Of a stretch of 64,000 nucleotides of DNA, positions 689 to 53,906 are shown piece after piece. The notes under the pieces are model-generated. The model was given only the letters and a program-made list of their open reading frames with translations, was not told the DNA's origin and did not search any database. Numbering within the stretch: position 1 is the first letter of the stretch; each line of letters begins with the position of its first letter. Source of the stretch: Patescibacteria group bacterium (GTDB lineage Bacteria > Patescibacteriota > Minisyncoccia > Phycocordibacterales > UBA12079). The DNA lies in contig JAHITU010000024.1 of the NCBI GenBank assembly GCA_018817595.1, forward strand, positions 11,155-75,154. Reading direction: 5' to 3'. A program made the translations under genes and the position numbers.

Positions 689-1921
689 TCAAACAAAAAC
701 AACCTCCCTCTCCAACCTCAATCCTGTTTTTTCAAAAACATCTTTTTCTATTTTTTGGGCTAATTTTTTGACTTCTTCACAAGTTCCTTCACCTTTATTC
801 ACCAACATCAAGGCATGTTTGTTATAAACTCCCACTTCCCCTTCAAAAAATCCTTTCCATTCAAATTGGTCAATAAACCAGGCAATAGGAATTTTAATAT
901 TTTCTCCATCTTCAAAGAAAGGTGTTTCGGGAAATTTTTCTTTTAATTTTTCAAATTCATTTTTAGAGATAATCGGGTTTTTAAAAAAGCACCCAGCCGA
1001 TCCTAAACCTTCACTCAAGGGATAATTCTTCCCTCGAATTTCTATAATCTTTTTTCGAACATCTTTTACCTTTAAATCTTTTTTATTTTTTAAATCCTCT
1101 AAACCTTTGTAACCTAGGTTAGCTTTTCTGGACTGCTTCGTCGTTCCGCTTCGCTCCACTCCTCGCAGAGACGATTGTGGAGCAATCGTTACGGACGAGG
1201 CTTCGCCTCGTTCGTCTTCACTAGATAACCTACCAATAAATTGAGACGGATTTTTCTTCGAAAAATCCGTTGGCGAAAAGCTTTGTTTTTCGTCTTCGCG
1301 AGCGCAAGCGAAGCGATCCAGTGTTTCATCATCTAAAATTCTTAGTCTCAAAGCAACCCGAACAACCACCCAATTCGGTTCTTTTTTAAAAACAGAATTC
1401 CTATAACCGAATTCACATTCTTTATTGAGAAGCCTTTTCATCTCTCCATTTTCCATATCAAACACCTCCACCCAATCAACCACATCTTTCATTTCCACTC
1501 CAAAAGCTCCACAATTTTGCACAACTCCCGCTCCCACAGTCCCTGGAATCCAAGACAAACTTTCCAAACCCCACAGATTTTTTTTAGCCATTTTGTAAGC
1601 CAAATCATCCAAAAGCATCCCTGCCCCCACCACAACCTCCACAAGATCATCACTTAGTACTCCGACTACTAAGTCCTTATTTTCTATTTTTAGGACCAGA
1701 CCGTCGAAGCCATTATCTGAAATTAAAAGATTAGAACCTCCTCCTAAAATAAAAACAGGGAGTGAATTTTGTTTAGCAAAATTCACTCCCTCTTTTAAAT
1801 CTTCAATATCTTTAACTACTCCAAAATACTTAGCCTCTCCACCTATCTTAAAGGTGGTATATGGGGCTAATTTAATTTTTTCTTTTATTTCCATAATTTT
1901 TTTATTAACTTGGTTACTCAA
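689..1921 (-). CDS. murB: UDP-N-acetylenolpyruvoylglucosamine reductase MurB, carrying an in-frame insertion of about 70 aa
   Basis: N-terminal FAD-binding region (ILGGGSNLLISDNGFDGLVLKI), central WGLE..IPGTVGAG..QNCGAFG, and C-terminal GSAGCFFKNP are MurB hallmarks. At 410 aa it is longer than the typical 300-345 aa. The extra segment maps to a GC-rich repeat at 1127-1322. Confidence 0.8.
   Translation of the reverse strand: MSNQVNKKIMEIKEKIKLAPYTTFKIGGEAKYFGVVKDIEDLKEGVNFAKQNSLPVFILGGGSNLLISDNGFDGLVLKIENKDLVVGVLSDDLVEVVVGAGMLLDDLAYKMAKKNLWGLESLSWIPGTVGAGVVQNCGAFGVEMKDVVDWVEVFDMENGEMKRLLNKECEFGYRNSVFKKEPNWVVVRVALRLRILDDETLDRFACAREDEKQSFSPTDFSKKNPSQFIGRLSSEDERGEASSVTIAPQSSLRGVERSGTTKQSRKANLGYKGLEDLKNKKDLKVKDVRKKIIEIRGKNYPLSEGLGSAGCFFKNPIISKNEFEKLKEKFPETPFFEDGENIKIPIAWFIDQFEWKGFFEGEVGVYNKHALMLVNKGEGTCEEVKKLAQKIEKDVFEKTGLRLEREVVFV
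1127..1322. repeat. GC-rich composite palindromic repeat (TCTGGACTGCTTCG...CGAAGCGATCCAG termini) embedded in frame in murB
   Basis: This stretch is about 55-60% GC in a roughly 30% GC background. It shares terminal motifs (ctggactgcttcg / cgaagc..tccag) and internal motifs (cctcgcagagacg, gacgaggcttcgcctcg) with copies at 10906-11030, 21003-21128, 47334-47457 and 51375-51478. Confidence 0.6.
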
Positions 1922-4102: not shown

Positions 4103-4227
4103 TGATTAAATTATATCATAGAAAATATGAAAACATTAAAACATTAGAATATAAAAACAAACAGATTTTGTTCTACAAAATCTGTTAATGAAAAGTTTTA
4201 TTTTATAAAACTTTTACAAAAAAAAAT

Positions 4228-4265
4228 AATTACACTAAAACCGCGACCGCGGTTTTAGTGTAATT
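4228..4265 (-). terminator. Intrinsic terminator: 18-bp perfect stem followed on the minus strand by a U9 tract
   Basis: aattacactaaaaccgcg-ac-cgcggttttagtgtaatt, with the A-run 4217-4227 on plus giving a U-run on the minus-strand transcript. Confidence 0.55.
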
Positions 4266-4512
4266 ATTTAATTCACAAAATTAAGAGCAGTCATCCGAAG
4301 ATGACTGCTCTTAATAGAGAAATGCTTGGCACAGATAGCCCTAGAATAACTCTAGGTGAGTGCGGTGAACGGACCACCACGGTGATTCGGAAACACTTGC
4401 TCTCTTTTATTGCATTTTAGCTAGGTTATTGCACCAAGGATTCCTCCTATGTTCATTATACACCAATTTAAAATTAACAAGCAAATCAATTGTGAATAAC
4501 TCAACCATTAAA
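4266..4512 (-). ncRNA. Candidate structured leader or small RNA between two terminators, upstream of the O-antigen-ligase/TPR gene
   Basis: Minus-strand TATAAT at 4455-4460. Locally GC-rich (about 50%) core at 4320-4440. A 13-bp hairpin capped by a UUCG tetraloop (4284-4313 on minus: aagagcagtcatc-UUCG-gatgactgctctt). Long-range pairing ccttggtgca...tgtgccaagc. Ends at the 4228-4265 terminator. No protein-coding potential. Confidence 0.3.
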
Positions 4513-6622: not shown

Positions 6623-6716
6623 GATAATTAGTTAAAAGTTTGTAAAGTCCATAAAGTCAAAAGTCAAAAATTTGCAAAGCAAATTTTTTCTTAATTTAAA
6701 ATTTAAAATCTAAAAT

Positions 6717-10826: not shown

Positions 10827-10905
10827 AATGTTTTAGCTTATTAGCTTATAGCTGTTAGCTTTTAGGAAAAATTTACTCTGTAAATTTTCCTTGTTAATTC
10901 TAGAC

Positions 10906-11030
10906 CTGCCTACCGGCAGGCAGATTGCTTCGTCGTGACCTCCTCGCAAAGACGAAAATCTTTGCTTTTTGAAACGAATTTTGCTTTGCAAAATTCGTCT
11001 CTGCGAGGAGCCTGCGACGAAGCAGTCCAG
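10906..11030. repeat. GC-rich composite palindromic intergenic repeat of about 125 bp, between rpsH and rplF
   Basis: cctgcctaccggcaggcag + attgcttcgtcgtgacctcctcgca ... tgcgaggagcctgcgacgaagcagtccag. Nested inverted repeats (gcttcgtcg/cgacgaagc, cctcctcgca/tgcgaggag, cgaatttt/aaaattcg). About 60% GC. Confidence 0.65.
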
Positions 11031-11836: not shown

Positions 11837-13057
11837 TCATTTATATCTTAAAGCCTGAAGAGCATCTAATCGAGCAGCTCTTCTTGAAGGAGAAATTCCT
11901 GTTAATAAACCTACAGCCATGGAGAAAATTACTATACTAAAAATGAACCATGGAGGGTTATAAAATATATCTACAAAAACCCCTCCTAGAGAACGAGCCA
12001 ATATATTTAATGCAAAATTAAATACCCATTCTACTACTATACCAACCACGACTCCTATAACACCTCCCAAAAAACCCATAACTATAGCTTCACTTAGAAA
12101 AATAAAAGCAATATCTTTATTAGAAGCACCAATAGCTTTCATAATACCAACTTCATTCGTTCTTTCTAAAAGAGTAATAGTCATAGTATTAAACATTCCA
12201 ATTGCTGATACCACTAAAGCAATAAAACCAAATACTCCCAGAATAACCTGAATAGCACTAAAGATTTTGTTAATTTGATCAACTGTATCGGACAAAGCAG
12301 AAACTAAAAATCCCATATCAAAAATCTTTTCTCTCGCAGGGGATAAAAATTCATTTGATTTTACTTTAACCTTTAATTCATCATATCTATTTATACTTAG
12401 GTCACTAAGAAAACCTAAAGGCAAAAAAACAAAAGAAGAATCAGAGTTATCTATCACTCCTACAATTTTAAATTTTTCGTTTAAATCCACTATTTCTATT
12501 TCTCCTTCTACTAAAACTTCTTCGTATTCAATATTTTGAGTTATCTCCCTAGGTAGAAATACCTGAAAAGAAACTTCTGAACCGATAACTTCTTCTTCCT
12601 TTAAATCAAATAATTTAATCACAGCACTTGAAACTAAGATTTCAGGAGTATTGTTGTCAAATAATTTCCCTATTGATGGAATAATCCCTCCTAAATCAAA
12701 ATAATCAGTATTCACAGAATAAACTGTTGTATTAGCAATTAAATTATTTATACTCATTTGAGCAGGTAGAGTTATTTTTGGACTCACTTTATCAACTTCT
12801 TCAAAAGCTAATATTTTATCTATATTATCTTTATCCAAAACAATAGTTTCTACTTTCCCAGGAGCAACATCCAAAGATAATAGGGATTCACTAGTAGCGA
12901 TTTCTTTTAATAAAAGATCCTGTAAACCATAACCCATACCAACCAAAAATAGTACCGATCCAAAACCGACACCTAAACCAAGGACCGTCAAAAAGGTACG
13001 ACTTGATCGTCCTTTGAAACCTCTTATTGACAATCTAAATAGATCTGAATATAACAT
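11837..13057 (-). CDS. ABC transporter permease, MacB/FtsX family
   Basis: N-terminal TM helix, a large extracytoplasmic domain, and a C-terminal FtsX-type 3-TM module (MKAIGASNKDIAFIFLSEAIVMGFLGGVIGVVVG). Confidence 0.75.
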   Translation of the reverse strand: MLYSDLFRLSIRGFKGRSSRTFLTVLGLGVGFGSVLFLVGMGYGLQDLLLKEIATSESLLSLDVAPGKVETIVLDKDNIDKILAFEEVDKVSPKITLPAQMSINNLIANTTVYSVNTDYFDLGGIIPSIGKLFDNNTPEILVSSAVIKLFDLKEEEVIGSEVSFQVFLPREITQNIEYEEVLVEGEIEIVDLNEKFKIVGVIDNSDSSFVFLPLGFLSDLSINRYDELKVKVKSNEFLSPAREKIFDMGFLVSALSDTVDQINKIFSAIQVILGVFGFIALVVSAIGMFNTMTITLLERTNEVGIMKAIGASNKDIAFIFLSEAIVMGFLGGVIGVVVGIVVEWVFNFALNILARSLGGVFVDIFYNPPWFIFSIVIFSMAVGLLTGISPSRRAARLDALQALRYK

Positions 13058-13060
13058 AAT

Positions 13061-14371
13061 TTATTCTTGAGATAATATTATTTCTAACTCGTTTGTAAAA
13101 TGTTTAGCACTTACACGATTAAAACCAATTCCTCCTTTTTTCAAAGGTAAATCTAACTTCTTTTCAAATTCTTTAGTATTAATTTCATTAATTAATCTTT
13201 CCTTTATTAAAATATCTAACTTCATTCTTTGTTCTAAGCTTATTTGAATATCTTTTTTATTATCCAAAAGATATCTTCTTATTTCTTCAGCTTTTAAATC
13301 CAACTCTGATTTTTCTGAATTCGGTAAATTTATTTTATGTTTTAACAAATCAGCTTCTTCTAAAATTATATCTACTTTTCTCGCAAATTCTTGAGCTGTC
13401 TGTTTATAAAGACCCACTCCCCCATCTCTGAACGAATCATCAAATATCTTCTCCATAACATCGGTATCAATTTCTCCAGAAATTCTTTTAGCCACAACTT
13501 TTTCCAATCTGCTTATCTCAACAGGATTAAAATCTATTAAAAGGTGCTCTACCAAAGCCTTGGCTTTTAATTCCTCTTGCTTTAAATCTGGATAAATTTT
13601 AGCAAGTCTATTTAAAACTCCAACAATGGGTTTTTCTTCAGAAACCGATAGACTTTTATATTTAGACTTTTTATTTATTACTTCTCTGACTACTTGCCCG
13701 TCTTTCATATATAAAACTCTATGAGCATAATCAAGAAATCTATCGTCGTGAGTAACTAAAATAATTGTTTTTTTAAATTTTGTATTTAATTCTTCCAACA
13801 AACCCATCACTACATCAGTAGATTTAGAATCTAAATTTCCTACTGGTTCATCAGCCATAATAACAGACGGTTCATTTATCATAGCTCTAGCAATAGAAAC
13901 TCTTTGTCTTTGCCCCCCAGATAATTCATTAGGGAACTTATCAGCTTGTTTTAATATCCCAAAATATTTTAATAAATCTTTTGCTTTTTTCTTTCTTTCT
14001 TCTACTGGTCTTTCTATAAAAATTTGAGGTAAGATAACATTATCCAAAACACTCAAACTAGGCACTAAGTGATATGCCTGGAAAATCATTCCTATCTCGT
14101 GACGGTTAATATTCAATATATCTTTAGAAGCTAAAGATAAAATCTTTTTATCATTTATAATAATTTCCCCTGAAGTAAGTTTTTGTAGACCACTCATACA
14201 ATAAAGTAAAGTTGATTTTCCACAACCAGATGGTCCATAAATAATTACATATTCTTCAGGGTATATTTCAACGTTCACGTTTAACAAAGCGTTTGTTTCA
14301 TAGGTTTGACCTATATCATATATAAGGCTAGCGTCTTTTGTTTTTATTATGGGGTTTTTTATCATATTCAT
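13061..14371 (-). CDS. ABC transporter ATP-binding protein (MacB/LolD-like), with a C-terminal extension of about 200 aa
   Basis: Walker A GPSGCGKST, Q-loop, signature LSGGQRQRVSIARA, Walker B IMADEP, and an H-loop in VTHD. The extension beyond about aa 230 is of unknown function. Confidence 0.85.
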   Translation of the reverse strand: MNMIKNPIIKTKDASLIYDIGQTYETNALLNVNVEIYPEEYVIIYGPSGCGKSTLLYCMSGLQKLTSGEIIINDKKILSLASKDILNINRHEIGMIFQAYHLVPSLSVLDNVILPQIFIERPVEERKKKAKDLLKYFGILKQADKFPNELSGGQRQRVSIARAMINEPSVIMADEPVGNLDSKSTDVVMGLLEELNTKFKKTIILVTHDDRFLDYAHRVLYMKDGQVVREVINKKSKYKSLSVSEEKPIVGVLNRLAKIYPDLKQEELKAKALVEHLLIDFNPVEISRLEKVVAKRISGEIDTDVMEKIFDDSFRDGGVGLYKQTAQEFARKVDIILEEADLLKHKINLPNSEKSELDLKAEEIRRYLLDNKKDIQISLEQRMKLDILIKERLINEINTKEFEKKLDLPLKKGGIGFNRVSAKHFTNELEIILSQE

Positions 14372-14405
14372 TATATTATACCTGATTTTTGTTTTCGTTT
14401 AAAAT

Positions 14406-17400
14406 TTATAAACCTAGTCTTTCTAACCAACCAAATTTCTTTTCAAAGTTAGAGAAAATAATTTCTACAACATCTTGCTTTTTTTGAGGTGTTAATAAGG
14501 TGTAGTCTTTTGAGATAGATAGATTACCTTGAGAATCCTTGGACTGAACATTAAAACGATAAACAGTAGCTGGTTTTAGATTACCCAATACGGTTGTATG
14601 ACGATAAACAAGATCTTCTCTCAATTCACTACTTACTACAAATTCAGGGTTAATGGATGCTCCTTCTTGATAAAAAACTTGAGAGGTTGCCAACTCATCA
14701 GTTTGCCAAGTAATAATAGTTTGAATTTTTTTACCTTCTGAAGATACAGCTGATTCTGTTCTTAATTGTAATATCTGAGGAGGAATTACATCATCCACAT
14801 TATTAAATTCAGGAATAGTATGAGTAATTAACTCTCCGCTTTGAGTGGTTGATTTTAGACGTACAAAATATGTGGTTCCTCCCTCTAAATCTTCTATGGT
14901 AACCTCATGAGTAATACTCAGTCCTGCAACAGATTTTGTTTTTAATCTATCCTTTTGCAATTCTCCTTGATGATATGGAGTATATTCAATTTCTGTTGTT
15001 GATTCTACTGAAGTTTCCCATACAAATGTAGCTGAATGATCTTCTACATCCTTAACAGACCATTTAGTAATTTCTGGTACTTCAGCATTGGTTTTAAAAA
15101 CAAAATCTTTAGATTGAGCAATAGGTCCTACCTGTGATTTAGATTTTAATTTGTAGTGATATGTTGTACTTGGAGCTAAGTTAGAGAGAACCACAATATG
15201 AGAAGTTGTCAGCTCTTCTGCTTCTCCTCGTGTCTCTGTATATGGTTTACTTTTATTCAAATTATATTCAGCCTCTGTAGCTAACTCAATTAATGAGTTA
15301 GCTGGTTTATCAGTTCCCCAAGAAATGATAGCTGAAGACGAAGTCACCTTAACATTCGGTTCAGAACTTAAAAGTGGAGCTGGGATATATTTTGATAAAT
15401 CTTCGATAGTTTGAGTAGTTAAAACCAAGTTCTCTTCTAATTTTTGTACTGAAACCTGTCCTGCCATTTTTGAGAAAATTGAATTAACTTTTTGAGTCGC
15501 TAACTGCAATAGAGATTCTTGAGCTGTCTTAACTGTGCTACTTGTGGTTATAACAGGAGTTTCTTGAATATCTTCAATTTCTTGAGTGTCTTTCTCCACT
15601 CCTTCAAGAGAAGATAAAGTGGTGAAAGAAGCCTGGGGTGATTCAGCTTTATTACCTGAACTATCAATAGAAATAACTTTATAGAAATATTGATTTGAAG
15701 GGTAAAGTTTTGTTAAAGTTATTTTATGATTTCTACTCGTATTCAATGACATACCATTTAATAGCCCGTATTCTGGACCTGTACCATACTGAACTCCTTC
15801 ATTCGCGTCCTCGTTAGTAGCCCAAGTCACAGTAGCTGTAGTTGCACCAACATCAACTTTAACATCACTAATTACAGGAGCTTTTCTGTCAGTAACAGGA
15901 CAAGAAGCTCCTCCCCCTCCACCACCACTTGAAGCAGCGACACAAAAAGTTCCATTCCAAGAAGTATTAGAACCACAATAACTAGAACCAGCCCCTGCAC
16001 TAGCAATTCCCTCAGCTCTCGCAGCTTCTTCTCGTATGACCACAGCAGCCTCTTCAGACAAGGCTCCTAAAGTAGTAAAGAATGTTTCTGCACTAGTAGT
16101 AGCGTTCGAATTAGCATCAGTGGAAAGCACTCTGAAATAATATTTAATCTCTTCAGTTAAGCCAGATAATTTAACTGAGTGTGAAGTATCCAGAGTTGCC
16201 TTTGAAGAGGAGGCTGTATAGACTCCTGAAGTGGTTCCATAATCAACAACAGAATTTGAAGCTTCATCTGTTATCCAAGTAATGTACGCGAAAGTATCCC
16301 CAATAGTTGAAGCACTTGGATCAGTTGTAATATTAGGAGCAGTTATATCTGACGAATCTGTTGTGGTAAAGGTCCATCCCGCTCCAGCATTATCATCAGT
16401 TCTTGTATTAGAGTTGGAATCGGTACTTTTTAATCTTATGTAATAGGTGGTACCTGCTGTTAAGCCAGTTATATCAAAAGAATGGTTAGAGTTGTAGTTG
16501 TTGTTAGATTCTGTAGTTCCATAGGAATTAGATATTCCGTATTCTAGTGTTGAAGTAGCCACTTCACTGGTCGTCCAAGAAACAGTGGCTGTGGTATCTC
16601 CTATAGCAGTAATATCTGTATCACTATCAAAAGTAATTGTAGGAGCGGTCGAATCTTGAGTAGTAGTCAGACTATAATATGCAACTTCTCCATTAATAAC
16701 ATTTTTATCATTAGCTGTTCCTGAACTTACATAATAGTAATATTTAGTCCCTGCTGTTAAACCACTCACAGTCACTGAGTGTGAAGCCACTGAATCAGCT
16801 GAACCAGTTTGAGTAGCACTGGATAAATCTGAGTTAGTTGAATAATAAACATAAGAACTAGCTACAGTATCTGTAGTCCAAGTAATCACAGCTGATTCAT
16901 TATTTATAGTATCTGTAGTTACAGCAGAGATAGATGGACCTGCTAGAGTATCAAAAGTAAAACCATTATCTCCTGGAACTTTAGTAGCTGTATTATTATT
17001 AATATCCGTTGATTTAACCTGGTAATAATACGTAGTGTCTGGAGTTAAACCAGTCAAGACGATACTATGTTGTCCTAGGCCAGCAGCTGTATTTAACATA
17101 GTAGCTTTTCCAACATAAGGGGCATCTGTGAAGTCAGCTCCTGTAGCTGTAATATATTCTACTCTGGAATCGGCTAGCTCATCTGTATCCCAAGTAATAG
17201 TAGCTGACTGAGTAGTAATATTAGAAGCTGTAGTATTAGTAATAACAGGTTCAACAGCTTCTACTCCTCCCCCTCCTTCTGATCCGTCTTGAGTACCGTT
17301 AGCTGTTCCTGCAATAGCTGAAGAGTAAGCTGAAATATTTCCATCGGCATCAATTGAAAGAACTTTGTATTGATGAGTAGAATCAGCACTAAGACTTCTA

Positions 17401-20282
17401 TCCACATAATAATTCAAAGTTCTATCTGTAATAGTTGATTCTAATGAATAGTTAATTCCATCAGTGGCATGATAAACCTTGTAGGAACCAAAACCAGGAC
17501 CTGGATTATCAACAACTCCCCAAGTTAAAAACAAATCATAAGTCGCAGGAGTCACATTAACATTAGAGATATCTTGAATAACAACATTAGCAGGTGTATT
17601 GGGAGTAGTAGCATTAAGAACAGAAGATTCATTTCCATAAACATCTCTGAATTTAACATAAACAGTATCTGGATCAGTTGTGCTTTGGGTATCACTAGTT
17701 GAATATGATTCCCATGAAGCTCCTGCAAAACCAGAATCTAAAGAAATCATCATTTCTTTGTCTGAATCATCTGTAGCTGCCAAAGTCAAAGTAGCTGGAC
17801 TGGTAGAATTATCTACAATGACAGAAGTTGATGTAGGGGCAGTAGTATCTAAAATACCGGCTATGGTAGTAGAAGCCACGGTATTATTAGCCGCTTCTTT
17901 ATCGTCAAAGGTTGCTCTCATTTGAAAACCTGTTGTATACAAATCAGCCACAGTAGTTGAAGCTATCCATGTTGCTGTATAAGTTAAATATGAATCTTCT
18001 AAGACTTTGTTATCTGTGTATCCATCAGAGTTGTCATCAATCACTTCCCCACTACCTGGGGCTACACCATAAATAATTGATGAAGTAGCAATAGAATTCC
18101 AAGAAGATCCATTGTAATATTCAAAAGTAGGTGTTACATAATTAGGGATAACAGTTCCACTGGTTGTATCGGCATCTTTAATTTCATAAGAAATGTCTAC
18201 CACTCCATCTGTTCCTTGTACTGCTGTGAAAGTTCCGACTAAAGGAGCTCCATTAGCCACATAGATAGGAATAATATTATCAACCGTAGGTGAAGTTAAT
18301 CCAGGTTCAATCACTACTTTATATTGAAACCACTGATCATTAGATCCGTCTTTTAGAGCTGTAGGGATTACTGTAGTGTCACAAGCAACAGAACTTGTTA
18401 ATTTAGTACAACCGCTGGTTAAAAAGTTAGGAGTGGATGATGCTATTTCAGACCAAATAGCTGAATCTAAACCGACAGCAGAAGTGGCTGTTCTTAAATA
18501 CATTTTAACTTGTGAATTAGTTGGTAGAGTTGTATTCTCTGTCCAATTAATTCCTGCCATTACATTAGCAACTGCTTCTGTATTATATTTAGAAGAGATT
18601 AAATTTTCATTATTTTCAAAATAAGTATAATTAACTTTAATCTGATCAATTTCCGGAGTTGCGGCACTATCAGTTGTTGATAAATCCATCGCAAAATCTA
18701 AAGTAGTAGTTGTTCCAGCTGTAAACCCTCCACTAGTTGACCAATCTGCAGAATTCAATGCTTCCAATACTGTTTTAGACATTCCTTGAGATTGTAAATT
18801 AGCTAAAGAGGATAAGGCCCAGGCTGAACCAGTCCAATATTTCCAGGTTGTTCTTCCGTCGAAAGATACTAGATATTTTATATCTGTGTTAGTTGGAGTG
18901 GTTTGGGTTAAATCTACGTCTGTGATTGCAGAATAATTTGATACATCTATTTGAGTGGTATTTGTTGTAATTATGTAATATGGTGTTATTGGATAAGGAG
19001 AACTATAACTACTAATATCCATCATTTCTATTTCTGCTATAGAAATCGTAGTTCCACTTGAAACTGGAGCTGTGACATTTATTCGATAATAATTATATGC
19101 AATAGTATTCCCTATATCATATGTCTTCCATTCATGATATACCCAATCAGTAACATTACTCTGTGTATCAAGAGTAACCCAATTAGATCCATCATTTGAA
19201 CCGAGAAAAGTCCAATTCTTTGGCATTGTTTCATCTACTGAAAGATCTCCGGTCATACGATACCTTTTTATAATTTTAGTCTCTGGGAAAAGATATTGAA
19301 TCCAATGATTTAAACCTTGATTAAATGTTCTCCAATGAGTAGTTAAATTATTATCAAAAGCTTTGGTGGCATCATTACCGCCCGCAACATAATAAATACT
19401 AGCTGTCGCTGTTCCTCCATTACATAAATCATTTGAATAATTAATTACTGTTCCTTGTAATTTCCCAACCCCACCAACAATATCTGTTTTAGATGAATCC
19501 TCTTGTGTGTAATCTCCCTCTGTTGTGAAATCTATAGTGCTTGAAGCTGTTTGTGCTATTACTGTAATATCAGTTCCAGCATTAACACCAGAAGATTTAG
19601 AATAATATTTATCCCAATCTGATTGGTTAGATGTATGATTAGCTGTAGTTACAGTATCGACTCCTCCCACCCATGAAGCTTGAGTAAAATTATAGGTAGC
19701 AGCTTTAACAACAGAAAGTGGATATATTAAAGAAGAAACTAAAACAAAAATTATTCCAATAATTCCAATAGAAGTTTTTATAGTTGTTTTTATTCTGTTC
19801 TGTTTATGAAAATTAATCAATTGTTGTTCAAGAGAAATAGCTTGTTTTTTATCTACTTCTTCCCCTCTTTTGATTTGATTAATAATTTTATCTAAATCTA
19901 AATATTCAGTAGGACAGTGTTGTTTAAACTCATTTAAAATTTCATTCTCAACTAGAACTAAAGAATCTTTAGAAGATCTAAATAACAAAGCAAGAGAATA
20001 AATCAGTCTACGATAAGAATCAATTTCATCTTTGTTTTGAATTCTTTTGTATTCTTTTTTTAATAATTCTCCAACGATAGGAACAGAGCTATCTGTAATC
20101 TGAGAAATTATAATTAAAGATAAAATAAAAGCCAAAAGAATAATAAAAAAGATTATTCCTCCTACTAAATTCCATAGATAAAACAAAGTAAATACAGTTA
20201 GTAAAAACGTAATTACAGACAACAAAAAAGATACGTAAAAAGCCATCTGTTTTCTTAATTTAAACAAATATTTATTCATCAT
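14406..20282 (-). CDS. Giant (1958 aa) membrane-anchored surface protein with an F5/8-type-C (discoidin)-like domain and at least 8 fibronectin-III-like repeats
   Basis: N-terminal hydrophobic helices. A discoidin-like segment (NLTTHWRTFNQGLNHWIQYLF...NWTFLGSNDGSNWVTL). Repeated units of about 90 aa of the form TATITWDTDELADSRVEY...LTGLTPDTTYYYQVKSTD. Thr/Ser/Gly-rich. Confidence 0.7.
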   Translation of the reverse strand: MMNKYLFKLRKQMAFYVSFLLSVITFLLTVFTLFYLWNLVGGIIFFIILLAFILSLIIISQITDSSVPIVGELLKKEYKRIQNKDEIDSYRRLIYSLALLFRSSKDSLVLVENEILNEFKQHCPTEYLDLDKIINQIKRGEEVDKKQAISLEQQLINFHKQNRIKTTIKTSIGIIGIIFVLVSSLIYPLSVVKAATYNFTQASWVGGVDTVTTANHTSNQSDWDKYYSKSSGVNAGTDITVIAQTASSTIDFTTEGDYTQEDSSKTDIVGGVGKLQGTVINYSNDLCNGGTATASIYYVAGGNDATKAFDNNLTTHWRTFNQGLNHWIQYLFPETKIIKRYRMTGDLSVDETMPKNWTFLGSNDGSNWVTLDTQSNVTDWVYHEWKTYDIGNTIAYNYYRINVTAPVSSGTTISIAEIEMMDISSYSSPYPITPYYIITTNTTQIDVSNYSAITDVDLTQTTPTNTDIKYLVSFDGRTTWKYWTGSAWALSSLANLQSQGMSKTVLEALNSADWSTSGGFTAGTTTTLDFAMDLSTTDSAATPEIDQIKVNYTYFENNENLISSKYNTEAVANVMAGINWTENTTLPTNSQVKMYLRTATSAVGLDSAIWSEIASSTPNFLTSGCTKLTSSVACDTTVIPTALKDGSNDQWFQYKVVIEPGLTSPTVDNIIPIYVANGAPLVGTFTAVQGTDGVVDISYEIKDADTTSGTVIPNYVTPTFEYYNGSSWNSIATSSIIYGVAPGSGEVIDDNSDGYTDNKVLEDSYLTYTATWIASTTVADLYTTGFQMRATFDDKEAANNTVASTTIAGILDTTAPTSTSVIVDNSTSPATLTLAATDDSDKEMMISLDSGFAGASWESYSTSDTQSTTDPDTVYVKFRDVYGNESSVLNATTPNTPANVVIQDISNVNVTPATYDLFLTWGVVDNPGPGFGSYKVYHATDGINYSLESTITDRTLNYYVDRSLSADSTHQYKVLSIDADGNISAYSSAIAGTANGTQDGSEGGGGVEAVEPVITNTTASNITTQSATITWDTDELADSRVEYITATGADFTDAPYVGKATMLNTAAGLGQHSIVLTGLTPDTTYYYQVKSTDINNNTATKVPGDNGFTFDTLAGPSISAVTTDTINNESAVITWTTDTVASSYVYYSTNSDLSSATQTGSADSVASHSVTVSGLTAGTKYYYYVSSGTANDKNVINGEVAYYSLTTTQDSTAPTITFDSDTDITAIGDTTATVSWTTSEVATSTLEYGISNSYGTTESNNNYNSNHSFDITGLTAGTTYYIRLKSTDSNSNTRTDDNAGAGWTFTTTDSSDITAPNITTDPSASTIGDTFAYITWITDEASNSVVDYGTTSGVYTASSSKATLDTSHSVKLSGLTEEIKYYFRVLSTDANSNATTSAETFFTTLGALSEEAAVVIREEAARAEGIASAGAGSSYCGSNTSWNGTFCVAASSGGGGGGASCPVTDRKAPVISDVKVDVGATTATVTWATNEDANEGVQYGTGPEYGLLNGMSLNTSRNHKITLTKLYPSNQYFYKVISIDSSGNKAESPQASFTTLSSLEGVEKDTQEIEDIQETPVITTSSTVKTAQESLLQLATQKVNSIFSKMAGQVSVQKLEENLVLTTQTIEDLSKYIPAPLLSSEPNVKVTSSSAIISWGTDKPANSLIELATEAEYNLNKSKPYTETRGEAEELTTSHIVVLSNLAPSTTYHYKLKSKSQVGPIAQSKDFVFKTNAEVPEITKWSVKDVEDHSATFVWETSVESTTEIEYTPYHQGELQKDRLKTKSVAGLSITHEVTIEDLEGGTTYFVRLKSTTQSGELITHTIPEFNNVDDVIPPQILQLRTESAVSSEGKKIQTIITWQTDELATSQVFYQEGASINPEFVVSSELREDLVYRHTTVLGNLKPATVYRFNVQSKDSQGNLSISKDYTLLTPQKKQDVVEIIFSNFEKKFGWLERLGL

Positions 20283-21002: not shown

Positions 21003-21128
21003 TTGCCTGCCCGACAGGCAGATTGTTTCGTCGTGACCTCCCCGCAAAAACGAAAAGCTTATCTTTTCGTAACGAATTTTACTCAATAAAATTCGTCTCT
21101 GCGAGGAACCTGCGACGAAGCAGTCCAG
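21003..21128. repeat. GC-rich composite palindromic repeat between rplX and rplE, co-linear with the 10906-11030 copy
   Basis: cttgcctgcccgacaggcag + attgtttcgtcgtgacctccccgca...tgcgaggaacctgcgacgaagcagtccag. Confidence 0.65.
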
Positions 21129-21159
21129 AATCTTAAATCCTAAATCTTAATTCTTAAAT

Positions 21160-21927: not shown

Positions 21928-21991
21928 TTTATTAGTTATTAGCTTATAGCTTTTAGGTTTTTAGGAAAAACTTGCGAAGCAAATTTTTACT

Positions 21992-22011
21992 CCTGCCCGC
22001 CGGCAGGCAGG
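21992..22011. repeat. 20-nt GC palindrome CCTGCCCGCCGGCAGGCAGG, fused to the AT-rich palindrome upstream of rplN
   Basis: Near-perfect dyad. The same unit occurs at 22328-22347, 51325-51344 and 53875-53894, and in extended form at 29455-29490, 34105-34144 and 42171-42216. Confidence 0.6.
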
Positions 22012-22291: not shown

Positions 22292-22362
22292 ATTATTATT
22301 TAAAATTTGCGAAGCAAATTTTTACTCCTGCCTGCCGGCAGGCAGGTTATAGACTTTCGACT

Positions 22363-23037: not shown

Positions 23038-23147
23038 ATTATTACAATTAGTTGAAAGTCCTTAATGTCGAAAGTCGAAAGTCTTTTTTAAAAATTTACG
23101 AAGTAAATTTTTACTTTATGGACTTTATGGACTTTACAGACTTCTCA

Positions 23148-24265: not shown

Positions 24266-24355
24266 GATTTTAGTTATTTAGTTATTTGGGTCATTAGGTT
24301 TTAGGAAAAATTTACTTCGTAAATTTTTTCTTAAATCTTAAATCATAAATATTAT

Positions 24356-24749: not shown

Positions 24750-24787
24750 TAAAGTATGACATAAAAAATATTATTCATAATAAAATT

Positions 24788-24821
24788 AAATATAGGATGA
24801 TTATAAAATCATCCTATATTT
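24788..24821. terminator. Hairpin terminator downstream of the 1012-aa protein gene
   Basis: aaatataggatgatt-ataaa-atcatcctatattt. Confidence 0.45.
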
Positions 24822-24840
24822 AATTTTAAAACCTAATTAA

Positions 24841-28699: not shown

Positions 28700-29454
28700 A
28701 TTTTTTTTCTAAAAAATTAAAACTAATAATGAATTATTATCATATCCCCAAGACTTAATTGAATGGTCAAAGAAAATCAACCACCAAGAAATCTCATTGG
28801 TTTTATGATTTTACGACCTTTATTTTAGTATCTAAAAATACCATAACTATATAATATCATTATATGAAATGAAAAATATATGAAAACTGTGGATAAAATG
28901 ATGTCGGCTCAAAACAAAAGAAATCTTTGCTGAAAAACTTTTTCCTTCGGAACAACTTAAAGACATCCGACCTCATTTTTTATAATATTAAAATTAATAT
29001 CTAAAGATGACAGTTGTTTTAATTAAGAGGTCGGATGTCACCCAAACCACTCCCAGTGGGTCGGGTGAAATTTTTTCATAACTAAAGTAAAGAACAGTAA
29101 TTGTTTTGTTAAAAGTTTTAATGCTTGTATTTTATTTAGGTTTAACTTTTTTAAGGGATGGAAGAAGACGAAAAGCTTTAGCTTTTCGTCCACGAATTTT
29201 GCTTCGCAAAATTCGTCTTTACGAGAAATGAAGCGTAGCGAAATGACGAAGTAATCCAGAAATAAACAAAAAAGATAAACCTCAGTCTTACTTTTTCACT
29301 AAAAGTTTTAATGCAAGGATTTCTTTTATTTTAAACCTTAGTAGGGTGACGGGCGAGGCTTCGCCTCGCCCGTCTATAAATAAAAAAATCAACGGCTATG
29401 CTCGTAGCCATTGATTTTTTGTTTATTTTTTTAACTTTACAGACTTTAAACTTA

Positions 29455-30819: not shown

Positions 30820-30902
30820 TTTTTTAACTCCTTAATTTTAAATTTATAGAAACTTACTAGAATCAAAGTATATCTAAAAAAACAAAAAAGGTCAACGAAA
30901 AT

Positions 30903-30982
30903 AAAAAGACTTGGGGGTGAAACCCCCAAGTCTTTTTATTTTATAAATATGAAAGAGCGAGGCTTTAGCCTCGCTCTTTCAT
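30903..30982. terminator. Two consecutive strong hairpins (bidirectional terminators) downstream of rplL
   Basis: aaaaagacttggggg-tgaaa-cccccaagtcttttt, then atgaaagagcgaggc-ttta-gcctcgctctttcat. Confidence 0.55.
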
Positions 30983-31519: not shown

Positions 31520-31635
31520 AATTATATTAAGTTATTAGGAAATTAGGTTGTTAGGTTGTTAGGAAAAAATTTACGAAGTAAATTTTTTTCTTAAATCCTA
31601 AATCTTAAATCCTAAATCTAAATTATTTTAATAAT

Positions 31636-32856: not shown

Positions 32857-33078
32857 TTTTATATTCCTTTAAATAATTTAAAGTTAACTACCTCAGGTCA
32901 ATATACCAAAACAAATCCATTAGTCAATAAAGAACCTTGTGCATTCAAACTCATACCCCACCCCGTCTCCGCGAGACAATATTTCTTATTAAGAAATATT
33001 GTCTCGCGGTCCATTTCTAAAATCTCACAACAAAAAATCACTTGGAAGTTGAACTTCCAAGTGATTTTTTGTTTACAT

Positions 33079-33504: not shown

Positions 33505-33612
33505 ATTTTTGTATAAAAATTAATAATTACTATTCTATTAGTATAGTAATCTCCTGTATAAAGTCAATGGATTTTCGTTATTTTAAATAAATATAAATTT
33601 TCTAACAAACCC

Positions 33613-33888
33613 TTGCAAAAAACCGAAATATAAATATAATAGTCATCAGCAGTTCAAGAGAGGCTGATGGTCCAGCAAAAGGCGAGGTCCGAATCTCGGG
33701 GACAATACTCCCTTTAAACTCTCTTTTTCTTCGATCAAGACAAGTCTGGTTGCCGAGGTCATTCCCTAAAATGACTGACGGTCTCCAAAGGCACCCCGCA
33801 ACAATAGTGGTGTCTACATCGCAATCAAACCATCTTGATCAAATCCCTCTTGGATACCTTTTCACGGTATCCTAGAGGGATTTTTTTT
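33613..33888 (+). ncRNA. Candidate small RNA 1: promoter TTGCAA-N16-TATAAT (33613-33640), about 240-nt transcript, terminator 33845-33888
   Basis: Good -35/-10 match. GC-enriched structured body (ggctgatggtcc..gaggtccgaatctcgggg). Ends with a 14-bp interrupted stem ccctcttggatacc/ggtatcctagaggg followed by T8. Stop codons in all frames. Confidence 0.45.
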
Positions 33889-34207
33889 ATCTATTTTCTT
33901 ATTTTTCAAAGGACGAAGCCTCGCTTCGTCCTTCTTCTTCACCCTAAAAAGTTAAACCCAAATAAAATACAGACATTAAAATTTTTAATGAAGAGTTACT
34001 GTCTTTTGCTTTAGCAAAAGGAAAATTTCACCCGACCCATACTCCCACAACAAAGAATATTTGTATAATATGGTTTTTAAAATGGTTGGGCTTGGGTTTG
34101 GATCCTGCCTGCCCACGCCTGCCGGCGCGCAGGGGTAGGCAGGTTTAAAAACATATTATACAAATATTCTAACAACTCATTTTATCCACAACTTCTTTTA
34201 AAATTTC

Positions 34208-34500
34208 TTGACTTTTATTTAAATATATTATATCCTTATATTTAGAAATAAAGGTAAATACAATTTCCGGGAGAATAGATGAAAAGGATTTATAGTACCT
34301 TTTCACAACAACAACTTTATAATTTCTCCCAAATGACCTCTCCTTTAGAGTCTTTCCTCTTCGGGAGTAAATGCATTCGAAAATGTTTTCATGAGAACAT
34401 TTTCATGTATAAGGAATTATAGCCAATTCCTTGTATAGCTGAATAGGTCATAATACCCCCAAAGATGTCTGGTGAACATCATGCGGGGGTATTTTATTTT
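34208..34500 (+). ncRNA. Candidate small RNA 2: TTGACT -35 at 34208-34213, a structured body of about 250 nt, terminator 34453-34500
   Basis: Internal hairpins gaaaatgtt/aacattttc and tataaggaatt/aattccttgtata. Terminator ataccccc...gggggtat followed by a T-rich tract. Confidence 0.35.
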
Positions 34501-34547
34501 ATGTTATTTAGTAATTTAAATTTATATTAATTAATTTTTAAAAATCC

Positions 34548-46726: not shown

Positions 46727-47333
46727 AATTTCTTAAAAAATTATTACTAATAAAAATTTTAATGATTTTAAGAAATTGTAATGTACAAAATTATTTCTAA
46801 TTTTGTACGGCTAATAAACAATTAATAATTTCGTTTGTTAATTTTTATTACACCAATTATATTTACGACCAAATAAAATTGGTGCATTCGTTTGTTTTTG
46901 TTTTTAGGTTCCTCGAACCTTTTGGGATATTCAATTTTCAAAGTACATATTCATTGAACAACTCTTCCGATTTAAAACGGAAAATTTGTTAGTGAAATTA
47001 TATCTTGTCTTGTTTATCTTGCAAAGAAATTTTGTGGATAACTCACACAAAATAAACAGAAATATAACCTTATTATTTTATAATAATTAAGGTTAAAAAG
47101 CAAGAGATTTTCAACCCAACTATGCCGACAGGCAGGTACAAAAATATTACGGTCCTTCATATATACTAACATAAATATAAACTAATTCATATCTAAAAAA
47201 TTAAATTTTAAGACTTATTTTAAAGATAAATGAATAGGTTAAAAATATTATTAATGACTTTATGATTATAGTGACATGGGTTAAATATTAGGTGTTGTGA
47301 ATAGTTTTGTGAAATAATAATTTAATTGAGTTT

Positions 47334-47457
47334 TTCTGGACTGCTTCGCAAGCTCGCAGAGACGGTCACAAAGCGACCTTTACGGTTCGCTTTCAGCGAA
47401 CCGTCCCTGCCTGACGGCAGGCAGGTTTGCGAGGAGTTTGCGACGAAGCAATCCAGA
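47334..47457. repeat. GC-rich composite palindromic repeat with the CCTGCCTGACGGCAGGCAGG module placed centrally
   Basis: ttctggactgcttcgcaagctcgcagagacgg...cctgcctgacggcaggcagg...gcgacgaagcaatccagag. The internal minus-strand and plus-strand ORFs here are spurious. Confidence 0.6.
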
Positions 47458-48464: not shown

Positions 48465-48595
48465 TCTGGATTGCTTCCCCAACACTTTGTTGCAACAATG
48501 TTAATAAAGTTTAAAAAAAATAAACAATAATCTATAAAATAATAGTAAGTAATTTAATTCAAAGTACTGGGTCGCAAAGACGAAAAGATTTAAAC
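48465..48595. mobile_element. MITE-like element, copy B
   Basis: See copy A at 42300-42445: shared 26-nt left end and a related right end. Confidence 0.5.
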
Positions 48596-51324: not shown

Positions 51325-51478
51325 CCTGCCTGCCGGCAGGCAGGTCCATAAAGTCAAAAGTCGAAAATCAAATCTCTGGATTGCTTCGCTGACGCTCGCA
51401 AAGACGAATTTTTCAAAATAAAATTCGTTAACGAAAATCTATGATTTTCGTCTCTACGAGCGTCAGCAAGGAAGTCAA
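51325..51478. repeat. GC palindrome CCTGCCTGCCGGCAGGCAGG plus an AAGTC-pentamer tract plus a composite GC-rich repeat unit
   Basis: cctgcctgccggcaggcagg, gtccataaagtcaaaagtcgaaaatc, and tctggattgcttcgctgacgctcgcaaagacgaa...cgtctctacgagcgtcagc. Confidence 0.6.
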
Positions 51479-53285: not shown

Positions 53286-53339
53286 AAAATAGACAAAGAA
53301 AAAATGAGCTTTAGCTCATTTTTTCTTTGTCTATTTTTT
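53285..53339. terminator. Long perfect-stem bidirectional terminator after efp
   Basis: aaaaatagacaaagaaaaaatgagc-ttt-gctcattttttctttgtctattttt (stem of about 25 bp). Confidence 0.6.
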
Positions 53340-53446
53340 AGAATTATAAATTAAAAATTGTAAATTTTATATTGAATTTTTATTTTTAAAAAACTTTAAG
53401 CGGAAAGGGGGGTTCCCTTTCCGCCTTGAATCTATGTTTATGATTC

Positions 53447-53746: not shown

Positions 53747-53906
53747 TTTCTTCTCCTTAAATAAAAAGTTAAAGAATTATTTTTATGAATAACTAGCTAT
53801 TGGCATATTACATTAAAACCCCTCAAAATACAACAAAAAAACAATTGCTTTGGCAACTGTTTTTTGTTTTCATGCCTGCCTGTCGGTAGGCAGGTTTTAA
53901 TGATTC

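What the first reader, a model, noticed from the sequence alone, without database searches (positions are those of the whole stretch)
10906..11030. Family of GC-rich composite palindromic repeats (MITE/BIME/RPE-like) dispersed through an AT-rich genome
At least eight copies or partial copies were seen directly: 1127-1322, 10906-11030, 21003-21128, 29163-29258, 42835-42945, 47334-47457, 51375-51478 and 61236-61290. They share the termini CTGGA(C/T)TGCTTCG ... CGAAGCA(G/A)TCCAG and internal modules (CCTCCTCGCA/TGCGAGGAG, AGACGAA/TTCGTCT). Several also carry the 20-nt palindrome CCTGCC(T/C)(G/A)CCGGCAGGCAGG, either at one end or in the centre, so the family is modular like BIMEs. They are 55-60% GC against a background of about 30%, and each can fold into a hairpin of more than 100 nt. 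Two copies sit inside the ribosomal-protein operon (rpsH/rplF and rplX/rplE spacers) and would therefore be transcribed. One possible role is as RNA structural or processing elements. Another is as nonautonomous mobile elements, perhaps mobilised by the RAYT at 40.6 kb. To my knowledge, repeats of this kind have not been described for this lineage.
Basis: seen in the sequence. Interest (0 to 1): 0.75.

Follow-up and report, generated by a model that had tools for sequence, protein, structure and literature searches.

The report
Mobile palindromic repeats in a Patescibacteria genome
The GC-rich palindromes scattered through this tiny AT-rich bacterial genome are real, insertion-prone repeat elements (one sits in frame inside the cell-wall gene murB), and their conserved 30-base arm is also found, sometimes identical, in bacteria of many other phyla.

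Summary
The repeat family is real. Its terminus occurs 10 times in the window against 0.04 expected. Five copies fold into long multi-branched hairpins (z -6 to -10). The host is a Patescibacteria (CPR) MAG with 32% GC.

- The copy at 1125-1322 lies in frame inside murB and adds about 66 residues. A relative with 82% identical MurB has an empty site.
- Both copies in the ribosomal-protein operon are absent from the same spacers in the closest relatives found, which carry arms in other spacers. The elements are therefore gained and lost.
- The arm (CTGGAYTGCTTCG..CTCGCARAGACG) is not specific to this lineage. One capped scan found it in at least 119 genome stretches from about 10 phyla. Read on the other strand it has the CGTC...CCA frame of the published CGTC-tagged REPs.

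The 20-21 nt palindrome is a separate small insert. It adds 7 residues to murB and to a Wzy-like gene in relatives.

The local RAYT-like gene is flanked by a different palindrome, so it is not supported as the mobiliser.

Verdict: a REP/BIME/RPE-like non-autonomous repeat family, a new variant in a lineage where I found none described. The mobilising enzyme is unknown.

The parts
1125..1322 (-). Composite element inside murB, 198 nt or 66 codons, in frame. Arms at 1128-1173 (+) and 1291-1321 (-). Four inner hairpins.
   Evidence: PDB MurB (4jay) aligns on both sides with about 65 extra residues here. The homologue P0002 lacks the insert. Only the frame in use is free of stop codons. AlphaFold pLDDT is below 50 over residues 199-257.
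689..1894 (-). murB gene (FAD_binding_4 + MurB_C) that hosts the insert.
   Evidence: It is identical to database protein P0001, 401 aa.
10903..11030 (-). Composite element in the rpsH->rplF spacer. The 20-nt palindrome at 10905-10924 is nested in the left terminus. Arms at 10923-10954 (+) and 10996-11030 (-). Two inner hairpins.
   Evidence: It is absent from the orthologous spacer in L278-L286, where the spacer is 5-155 nt against 219 nt here.
21003..21130 (-). Composite element in the rplX->rplE spacer, 81% identical to the 10903 copy and with the same layout.
   Evidence: (family D4). It is absent from the orthologous spacer in L279, L280 and L283.
29163..29260 (-). Truncated composite: two inner (G)ACGA..TCGT(C) hairpins plus one diverged arm (29214-29259).
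29348..29374 (.). Solo perfect hairpin GACGGGCGAGGC-ttc-GCCTCGCCCGTC, of the same GACG...CGTC type as the inner hairpins.
32964..33012 (+). Solo unit CGTC-T-(19-bp perfect stem, 3-nt loop)-T-CCA. It shares CGTCTCCGCGAG with the arms.
   Evidence: DNA fold -21.7 kcal/mol, z -10.9.
42312..42429 (+). Solo arm split by a 94-nt AT-rich hairpin: CTGGATTGCTTC | CCCAACACTTTG...CAAAGTGCTGGG | TCGCAAAGACGA.
42835..42926 (+). Solo arm carrying two nested inserts: the 20-nt palindrome between CTGGA and TTGCTTCG (42841-42860), and an AT-rich hairpin in its middle.
47333..47457 (.). The most complete composite element. Arms at 47336-47364 (+) and 47426-47456 (-). Two inner hairpins, plus the 20-nt palindrome nested at 47406-47425.
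48466..48583 (+). Second split solo arm. Its ends are identical to those of 42312-42429, with a different AT-rich middle.
51375..51478 (+). Composite element in the spacer upstream of recA. The left arm (51376-51406) is identical to arms in Methylobacterium and Legionella. The right arm is degenerate.
51325..51344 (.). Solo copy of the 20-nt palindrome CCTGCCTGCCGGCAGGCAGG. Other solo copies are at 21992-22011, 22327-22346 and 53875-53894.
61236..61290 (+). Doubtful member. It has a terminus-like TTCTGGACTGTTTC followed by an unrelated hairpin.
   Evidence: The arm HMM does not detect it.

Best explanation
These are non-autonomous, insertion-prone palindromic repeats of the REP/BIME/RPE kind.

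The basic unit is a 30-38 nt arm. On one strand it reads CGTC-(A/T)YYGC..GCRR(T)-CCAG: a CGTC tag, a short covarying stem, a variable middle and a CCA(G) tail. In this genome two arms usually face each other with the tags inward. They enclose 2-4 perfect hairpins that each begin (G)ACGR and end YCGT(C). A second, independent 20-21 nt palindrome (CCTGCCTGCCGGCAGGCAGG) nests into the arms or inserts alone.

Shown: units are gained and lost between related genomes. They insert just downstream of stop codons and occasionally inside genes. Inside genes only copies that keep the reading frame survive, and they are translated as a disordered surface loop.

Inferred: mobilisation happens in trans, through single-stranded DNA hairpins, by an enzyme that recognises structure plus the CGTC tag, in the manner of HUH/Y1 (RAYT, IS200/IS605) enzymes. 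This would give insertion and excision without target-site duplication. The enzyme is not identified. Any effect on mRNA would be a secondary consequence.
For: Real family:
- Motif counts are far above chance.
- The folds are strong.

Gain and loss:
- murB is filled in the window and in L004-L006, which are three independent assemblies. It is empty in L001-L003, whose MurB is 82% identical.
- The rpsH/rplF and rplX/rplE spacers lack the element in every relative recovered. One of those relatives, L279, has an arm in the rplN/rplX spacer instead.

Nested, independent modules:
- The 20-nt palindrome is present in the L004 murB copy at CTCGCGAA^GACGA and absent from the window copy.
- A precise 21-nt in-frame insert sits in L001 murB (GAA|ACCTGCCTACCGGCAGGCAGG|TTA, giving TCLPAGR). 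Another sits in the L004 Wzy-like gene (EARLPAG). Neither shows a duplication.

Translated rather than spliced:
- The murB copy is 66 codons long.
- Only the frame in use is open.
- The same frame is kept in L004.
- AlphaFold gives pLDDT 22-39 over the insert, with confident domains on both sides.

Structure-level constraint on the arm:
- Two stem positions covary across 153 distinct arms. The first is T-A 140, C-G 8, T-G 4, C-A 1. The second is T-A 134, C-G 14, T-G 2, C-A 3. Fisher p = 7e-10 and 3e-15.
- There is one T-A to G-C compensatory change between the window and L004 murB copies.

Known kind:
- The CGTC tag, CCA tail, dimer organisation, intragenic copies and lack of an adjacent transposase match the published CGTC-tagged REPs (PMC3733652).
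- No gene recurs next to arms in 119 genome stretches beyond common ABC-transporter ATPase and short-chain dehydrogenase genes.
Against: - No mobilising enzyme is identified, and no transposition intermediate can be seen in static sequence.
- Copies in the window are diverged. The best pair is 81% identical, so recent activity is not shown.
- The 30-nt arm alone does not fold stably under nearest-neighbour DNA parameters (z +0.9 and +1.4). It therefore fails the canonical REP stem rule.
- The murB pattern is present in a 68%-identical relative and absent in an 82%-identical one. It needs either precise loss, a repeated hit at the same site, or recombination, and I cannot tell which.
- Identical arms across phyla are not explained by ordinary selfish spread within a lineage.
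- The covariation counts are not corrected for shared ancestry of the copies.
Confidence: 0.62

Rival explanations
1. The elements are primarily functional RNA structures (stabilisers, RNase processing sites or attenuators) kept by selection in operon spacers. On this view their repetition reflects a shared function rather than mobility.
For: All intergenic copies lie between co-directional genes, 16-230 nt downstream of a stop codon. They would be co-transcribed, because no sense-strand terminator-like site is found at the two ribosomal-operon copies. The folds are very stable. Published REPs are thought to act this way (PMC3733652).
Against: The same spacers in close relatives are 5-155 nt long and lack the elements, so the ribosomal operon does not need them. 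One copy is translated inside murB. Both strands fold equally well. No Rfam family matches. Nearly all genes here are co-directional, so the position downstream of stops carries little information.
Confidence: 0.15
2. The composite elements are mobilised by the Y1 (RAYT/IS200-like) transposase encoded at 40604-41287.
For: The gene carries HUH-type motifs (HYHFIL, and a later conserved Y) and a Pfam Y1_Tnp match at E = 9.6e-8. Enzymes of this class act on tagged DNA hairpins and leave no target duplication, which fits the junctions seen.
Against: The gene is flanked by a different palindrome, ACTTGGACACCSGGTGTCCAAGT. Five copies lie within 2.5 kb and one lies inside its own ORF. That is the classical REP-RAYT pairing for that other repeat. 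No arm adjoins the gene. In 119 arm-bearing genome stretches no Y1 gene recurs nearby. The published CGTC repeats likewise are not linked to tyrosine transposases.
Confidence: 0.1
3. The elements are not transposed. They spread and are lost through recombination or gene conversion between copies, or arise locally by fold-back or template-switch synthesis at GACG/CGTC sites. That process would generate perfect hairpins of arbitrary sequence.
For: The inner hairpins have perfect 9-12 bp stems with unrelated sequences, but all share the (G)ACGR...YCGT(C) ends. The arm middle accepts hairpins of any sequence. The murB pattern across relatives does not follow relatedness.
Against: There is no direct evidence. 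Identical arms in unrelated phyla require transfer or strong constraint, not local generation. The precise 21-nt inserts at unrelated sites look like insertion of a preformed unit.
Confidence: 0.1
4. The pattern is due to chance similarity, a local duplication or an assembly artefact.
For: None beyond the weak eighth copy (61236-61290).
Against: Motif counts are 10-13 against 0.04 expected. The same insert is seen in three independent assemblies. The arm is present in isolate genomes and in a closed CPR genome.
Confidence: 0.01

Closest known systems
CGTC-tagged REPs (families CGTC-1 to CGTC-4; Di Nocera, De Gregorio & Rocco 2013, BMC Genomics 14:522, PMC3733652)
   Same: They share the terminal CGTC tag, the CCA(G) tail and an A/T at the first stem positions. 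Both pair up as inverted dimers that fold into larger hairpins. Both occur in several phyla and sit mostly downstream of ORFs. Both include occasional in-frame intragenic copies and have no adjacent transposase gene. Canonical examples such as CGTCATGCCCGCGAAAGCGGGCATCCAG occur in the same proteobacterial stretches as the arms. Both share CGTC-AT..AT-CCAG.
   Different: The arm has only a 4-5 bp covarying stem around a 12-20 nt middle, not an 8-9 bp stem with a 4-5 nt loop. Alone it does not fold stably in silico. In the window the dimers have the tags inside ('TT', reported as rare) and enclose extra hairpins. None of the peptide strings I searched for (derived from the arm sequence) appears in the paper's list of intragenic REP peptides. 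Patescibacteria are not among the phyla the paper lists.
Rickettsia palindromic elements (RPE-1; also RPE-4 and RPE-6, which PMC3733652 equates with CGTC-4 and CGTC-1)
   Same: Both are palindromic repeats in a small AT-rich genome. Both insert in frame into essential genes and are translated as extra surface segments (for the Rickettsia facts; here).
   Different: The host phylum is different. The sequence differs from RPE-1 (my recollection, not tested). Only one intragenic composite copy is seen in 64 kb here. No protein-level evidence is available.
E. coli BIMEs and Pseudomonas REPINs with their RAYT transposases
   Same: Both show mosaic clusters of inverted palindromic units with variable linkers, located between co-directional genes. 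A RAYT-like gene is present in the genome.
   Different: BIME and REPIN units carry GTAG-type tags, are species-specific in sequence and flank their RAYT gene. Here the RAYT-like gene is flanked by another repeat, and the arm sequence is shared across phyla.
GC clusters of yeast mitochondrial DNA (from my own knowledge, not tested here)
   Same: Both are GC-rich palindromic mobile modules that stand out in a very AT-rich genome. They nest into each other and can lie in frame inside coding sequence.
   Different: They are organellar, unrelated in sequence and have different proposed mechanisms. This is an analogy only.

Membership tests
CGTC-tagged REP superfamily (PMC3733652) | Unpaired terminal CGTC (or a near variant) at one end of the unit | tested here: met
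   All solid arms end in GACG, which is CGTC on the other strand. The solo unit 32964-33012 starts with CGTC.
CGTC-tagged REP superfamily (PMC3733652) | Short unpaired tail fitting CCA at the other end | tested here: met
   Arms end ...AATCCAG or ...AGTCCAG. The solo unit ends TCCAT.
CGTC-tagged REP superfamily (PMC3733652) | Stem of 8-9 bp beginning with A-T pairs, and a loop of 4-5 nt | tested here: not met
   No unit of that geometry exists in the window, while 61 exist in the other fetched stretches. The arm stem is 4-5 bp (A/T)YYGC/GCRR(T) and covaries. The 30-nt arm does not fold stably as DNA (z +0.9 and +1.4), whereas a canonical unit gives z -5.7.
CGTC-tagged REP superfamily (PMC3733652) | Mostly head-to-head dimers (tags outside); tail-to-tail dimers rare | tested here: inconclusive
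   Across the fetched genome stretches, neighbouring arms with tags outside number 71 and with tags inside 21. All window dimers have the tags inside.
CGTC-tagged REP superfamily (PMC3733652) | No dedicated transposase gene next to the repeats | tested here: met
   Clustering ORFs within 3 kb of arms in 119 genome stretches gave only ABC-ATPase and short-chain dehydrogenase families.
RAYT-associated REP / REPIN | The repeat flanks the RAYT gene in the same genome | tested here: not met
   The Y1 gene at 40604-41287 is flanked by ACTTGGACACCSGGTGTCCAAGT, not by arms.
RAYT-associated REP / REPIN | GTAG-type tetranucleotide 5' of the hairpin | tested here: not met
   Arms carry CGTC and CCAG, not GTAG.
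MITE (derived from an insertion sequence) | Terminal inverted repeats matching those of an IS, plus a target-site duplication | tested here: not met
   Inverted termini are present. No duplication is seen at the murB, Wzy or palindrome junctions. No IS with these ends was seen in any stretch. The divergence of the compared genomes limits precision at the composite junction.
Rickettsia RPE-like coding palindromes | In-frame insertion in a conserved protein, absent from orthologues, with the reading frame kept | tested here: met
Rickettsia RPE-like coding palindromes | The inserted segment is expressed in the protein | not testable with these tools
   Only indirect evidence: an open frame kept in two genomes and a disordered loop in the AlphaFold model.
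Any Rfam RNA family | Covariance-model match | tested here: not met
   No match at gathering threshold in the window. Nothing relevant at E <= 0.5 on six arm-bearing stretches.

The most novel reading that the evidence does not exclude
The arm may be the recognition module of a pan-bacterial mobilisation or hairpin-processing system that has not been identified. The published CGTC repeats also have no known transposase. Identical 30-31 nt arms occur in genomes from 31% to 71% GC: Legionella, Methylobacterium, Nitrosomonas, Nitrospina, Clostridia, Bacteroidota and several CPR classes. Arms also occur on viral contigs. CPR genomes encode very few proteins, so finding the elements there, gained and lost between relatives, would sharply narrow the list of candidate enzymes. 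The candidate would be either a small mobile gene shared by all carriers or part of the universal replication and repair machinery.
Probability: 0.25. Interest if true: 0.7.

Novelty: new variant of a known kind. Interest (0 to 1): 0.45.

Why it matters
- I found no description of REP/BIME/RPE-type repeats in Patescibacteria in the literature I could search. Here they lengthen operon spacers and add residues to essential genes in genomes thought to be streamlined.
- In-frame palindrome inserts (66 residues in MurB; 7-residue PAGR-type inserts in MurB and a Wzy-like protein) add to the known sources of odd insertions in CPR proteins. They could mislead annotation, alignment and phylogeny.
- The arm is conserved, sometimes base for base, across about ten phyla. 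Its mobiliser is an open question that the authors of the CGTC REP paper themselves flagged. Small CPR genomes offer a tractable place to search for it.
- The elements are convenient markers of recent genome change between closely related CPR populations.

Tried and rejected
- Exact-protein look-ups of the window's RecA and MurB to recover the parent contig found nothing on record. I therefore could not census the rest of this genome.
- Rfam found nothing relevant: no match at gathering threshold on the window, and only chance-level hits in E-value mode on six arm-bearing stretches and on the 33.4-35.2 kb gene-free stretch.
- A literature search by sequence strings and by encoded peptides returned only noise.
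- Gene-neighbourhood clustering to find a partner enzyme gave only ABC ATPases and short-chain dehydrogenases in genome stretches. In viral contigs the recurrent clusters were a shared syntenic phage-like gene block, not a transposase.
- A plasmid BLAST with the arm found it on Methylobacterium, Novosphingobium, Methylosinus, Legionella and Aulosira replicons, always unannotated. No existing name could be recovered from annotation.
- I considered that the murB copy is an intron-like intervening sequence. I rejected this because the insert is a multiple of three and open only in the frame in use. It also keeps the same frame in a second genome.
- I considered intrinsic terminators. I rejected this for the sense strand of the ribosomal-operon copies, which have no T-run after the stem.
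- I considered that the arm is a canonical CGTC REP. I rejected strict membership because the stem and loop geometry is not met.

Full report
**Setting.** The window has 31.9% GC. It carries a ribosomal-protein operon, murB, secY, ftsK, recA and several very large surface proteins, nearly all on the minus strand. Its MurB is identical to a database protein named 'FAD-binding protein [Patescibacteria group bacterium]' from a 121.6-kb contig. The nearest homologues are from Pacebacteria/Paceibacterota-type CPR bacteria.

- The terminus CTGGAYTGCTTCG (up to 1 mismatch) occurs 10 times against 0.04 expected.
- The inner module CTCGCARAGACGR occurs 13 times against 0.04 expected.
- The 20-nt palindrome is found at 9 sites against 0 expected.
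- Five copies (1125-1322, 10903-11030, 21003-21130, 47333-47457, 51375-51478) fold on either strand into an outer stem closing two to four inner hairpins. Energies are -42 to -82 kcal/mol, with z -6.2 to -10.0.

Some details do not hold. GC of the copies is 39-57%, not 55-60%. Copies 29163-29260 and 42835-42945 are partial. Copy 61236-61290 is doubtful and is not found by an arm HMM. The HMM adds two 'split' arms, 42312-42429 and 48466-48583. Their two halves are separated by a 94-nt AT-rich hairpin. There is also a solo CGTC...CCA hairpin at 32964-33012.

**Anatomy.** The unit is an arm, CTGGA-YYGC-TTCG-(3-22 nt)-CTC-GCRR-W-GACG.
- In the window two arms usually face each other with GACG/CGTC inward.
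- Between them lie perfect 9-12 bp hairpins of unrelated sequence. Each begins (G)ACG(A/G) and ends (C/T)CGT(C).
- Across 153 distinct arm sequences from all fetched DNA, the two variable stem positions covary. The first pair is T-A 140, C-G 8, T-G 4, C-A 1. The second is T-A 134, C-G 14, T-G 2, C-A 3. Fisher p is 7e-10 and 3e-15. These counts are not corrected for shared ancestry.
- Each arm therefore has its own short stem around a variable middle. That middle often forms a small hairpin and can hold a 94-nt one.
- The 20-nt palindrome is a separate module. It sits between CTGGA and TTGCTTCG in three window copies and in a Campbellbacteria genome, in the centre of copy 47333, and alone at four sites.

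**A coding copy.** Copy 1125-1322 lies inside the murB frame.
- The PDB MurB 4jay aligns to residues 10-204 and 285-406 of the ORF. About 65 extra residues fall between the two domains.
- Most homologues are 333-340 aa, against 401 aa here.
- P0002 is the closest homologue, 82% identical, and has no insert at this site.
- P0003 (68% identical, 388 aa, seen in three independent assemblies) has a related insert at the same site and in the same frame. It also carries the 20-nt palindrome nested at CTCGCGAA^GACGA, read as PACRQAG.
- The insert is 66 codons. Only the frame in use is free of stops, against 0.2 open frames expected in shuffles.
- An AlphaFold model (12-sequence alignment, mean pLDDT 70) gives pLDDT 22-39 over residues 199-257, with confident domains on both sides.
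- I infer a translated, disordered surface loop, as described for Rickettsia palindromic elements.

**The small palindrome also enters genes.**
- P0002 and P0010 carry TCLPAGR elsewhere in MurB.
- At the DNA level this is a precise 21-nt addition, GAA|ACCTGCCTACCGGCAGGCAGG|TTA, with no duplication.
- The Wzy-like gene of L004 has EARLPAG where the window and L001 orthologues have nothing.

**Presence or absence at orthologous spacers.** A metagenome scan with ribosomal protein S8 returned nine related stretches.

| Spacer | Window | Relatives |
|---|---|---|
| rpsH->rplF | 219 nt | 155 nt, no arm, in L278/L279 (S8 83%, L6 91% identical); 10 nt in L280/L281; 5-31 nt in four more distant stretches (no rplF found in L282) |
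| rplX->rplE | 220 nt | about 105, 25 and 20 nt, none with an arm |

L279 has an arm in the rplN->rplX spacer, where the window has none. Together with murB, this shows gain and loss on the timescale separating these genomes.

**Distribution.** I scanned one representative genome per GTDB species for a single arm (25 specified bases).
- By record title they are: Methylobacterium 23, other Alphaproteobacteria 40, Legionellaceae 13, named Patescibacteria 12, unclassified 9.
- The remainder: other Beta/Gammaproteobacteria 5, Bacteroidota 5, Clostridia 4, and 2 each of Coxiellaceae, Nitrospina, Thermodesulfobacteriota and Deferribacteraceae.
- The named Patescibacteria include Moran-, Kaiser-, Campbell-, Peri- and Saccharibacteria.
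- Identical 30-nt arms are shared by Legionella, Methylobacterium, Nitrosomonas, Coxiellaceae, Sphingomonadales and a Peribacteria MAG.
- The window arm at 51376 is identical to arms in Methylobacterium sp. NFXW15 and Legionella quinlivanii.
- Arms and the 20-nt palindrome also occur on IMG/VR viral contigs, in 117 and 35 stretches. Arms occur unannotated on large plasmids.
- Outside the window the commonest arrangement has the tags outside, with a 14-33 nt loop: 71 pairs against 21 with tags inside.
- Tandem arrays exist in Legionella quateirensis (176-nt period) and Bradyrhizobium.

**Comparison with what is known.** On the other strand the arm reads CGTC-(A/T)TTGCGAG...CGAAGCAAT-CCAG.
- Di Nocera et al. 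(PMC3733652) defined CGTC-tagged REPs by a CGTC tag, an 8-9 bp stem starting with A-T pairs, a 4-5 nt loop and a CCA tail.
- They report mostly head-to-head dimers, occurrence in five phyla, intragenic copies (including Rickettsia RPE-4 and RPE-6) and no linked transposase.
- Canonical units of that form are present in the proteobacterial stretches I fetched but not in the window.
- The arm shares the tag, the tail and the first stem bases. It lacks the 8-9 bp stem and does not fold alone in silico.
- I therefore do not file it in families CGTC-1 to CGTC-4. I treat it as a variant in the same frame.
- No Rfam family matches. My searches found no description of such repeats in Patescibacteria.

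**Mechanism.**

*Shown:* insertion and loss, nesting, in-frame survival inside genes, covariation in the arm stem, and junctions without visible duplication.

*Inferred:*
- Mobilisation in trans through single-stranded hairpins by an enzyme that reads structure plus CGTC, by analogy with RAYT and IS200/IS605 enzymes.
- The CGTC strand contains GCGNAGC, and many hairpin loops in this genome are C-GAA-G.
- From memory, such GNA loops give unusually stable DNA mini-hairpins. That would favour a DNA-level form, but I did not test it.

*The local Y1 gene:*
- The gene at 40604-41287 is a poor candidate. It is flanked by five copies of a different palindrome, one inside its own ORF.
- No gene recurs next to arms elsewhere.

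*RNA role:* an RNA role remains possible as a by-product. The elements would be co-transcribed, and no sense-strand terminator follows them. However, relatives do without them.

**Unexplained.**
- Arm identity holds across phyla and across a 31-71% GC range.
- The inner hairpins are perfect although their sequences are unrelated.
- The murB insert is present in a more distant relative but absent from a closer one.

**Verdict.** This is a real, insertion-prone palindromic repeat family of a known general kind, in a lineage where I found none reported. It includes an in-frame copy in murB and an arm shared across bacteria. Interest is moderate. It would be higher if the arm leads to the unknown mobiliser of CGTC-type repeats.

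Noticed in passing
window 11837-20282: The ribosomal-protein operon is interrupted between rplE and rpsH by about 8.5 kb. The insert holds an ABC permease, an ABC ATPase and a 1958-aa fn3/purple-acid-phosphatase-N repeat protein. Relatives L279, L280 and L283 have only 340-870 nt there.
   Followed up: partly
window 40571-43036: A Y1 (IS200/RAYT-like) gene at 40604-41287 has its own palindrome, ACTTGGACACCSGGTGTCCAAGT, in five copies. One copy (41089-41111) lies in frame inside the transposase ORF, read as QLGHPVSKL. Related hairpins lie at 30898-30942 and 33029-33073.
   Followed up: partly
window 6666-6688, 10868-10888, 21970-21990, 22302-22322, 23089-23113, 24306-24328, 31564-31588, 55533-55557: A family of AT-rich hairpins, AAAAATTTRC-GAA-GYAAATTTTT, lies just upstream of many ribosomal-protein genes. 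They sit next to short tandem words of the TTAGG and TAAATC type (families D1-D3 and D7). They may be spacer regulatory or terminator-like modules. Relatives have similar ones.
   Followed up: no
window 1757-1791: A 15-bp perfect palindrome (AGGGAGTGAATTTTG-tttag-CAAAATTCACTCCCT) lies inside a conserved part of murB that encodes EGVNFAKQNSLP. It is not an insertion, because homologues keep the peptide.
   Followed up: no
window 33505-35151: A 1.6-kb stretch has no ORF of 80 aa or more and holds several GC-rich structured segments. Rfam gives only chance-level hits. The whole 64 kb has no tRNA gene and no Rfam match at gathering threshold.
   Followed up: partly
window, e.g. 4224-4269, 24781-24828, 35110-35156, 53282-53341, 55444-55501, 61181-61232: There are many very long perfect hairpins (stems of 19-28 bp, loops of 3-6 nt) at gene ends. 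This is far more than a terminator would need.
   Followed up: no
L057 1769-2205; L066 5708-7108: Arm dimers form tandem arrays in Legionella quateirensis (176-nt period, at least 3 units, cut short by an assembly gap) and in Bradyrhizobium sp. DASA03120 (about 167-nt period, at least 8 units).
   Followed up: no
P0022 and P0049 (MurB homologues): Other CPR MurB proteins carry different inserts at other sites, for example SSSLRADFGRNFQQASLVENSAQNPRGNP and SLRERFEADFSTAQLVEPLKNPPQNTRSNP. They look like translated palindromic repeats of yet other families.
   Followed up: no
L130-L205 (IMG/VR contigs): About 25 of the viral contigs that carry an arm share one syntenic block of genes. The arm may sit at a conserved position in a group of related high-GC prophage-like or GTA-like elements.
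   Followed up: no
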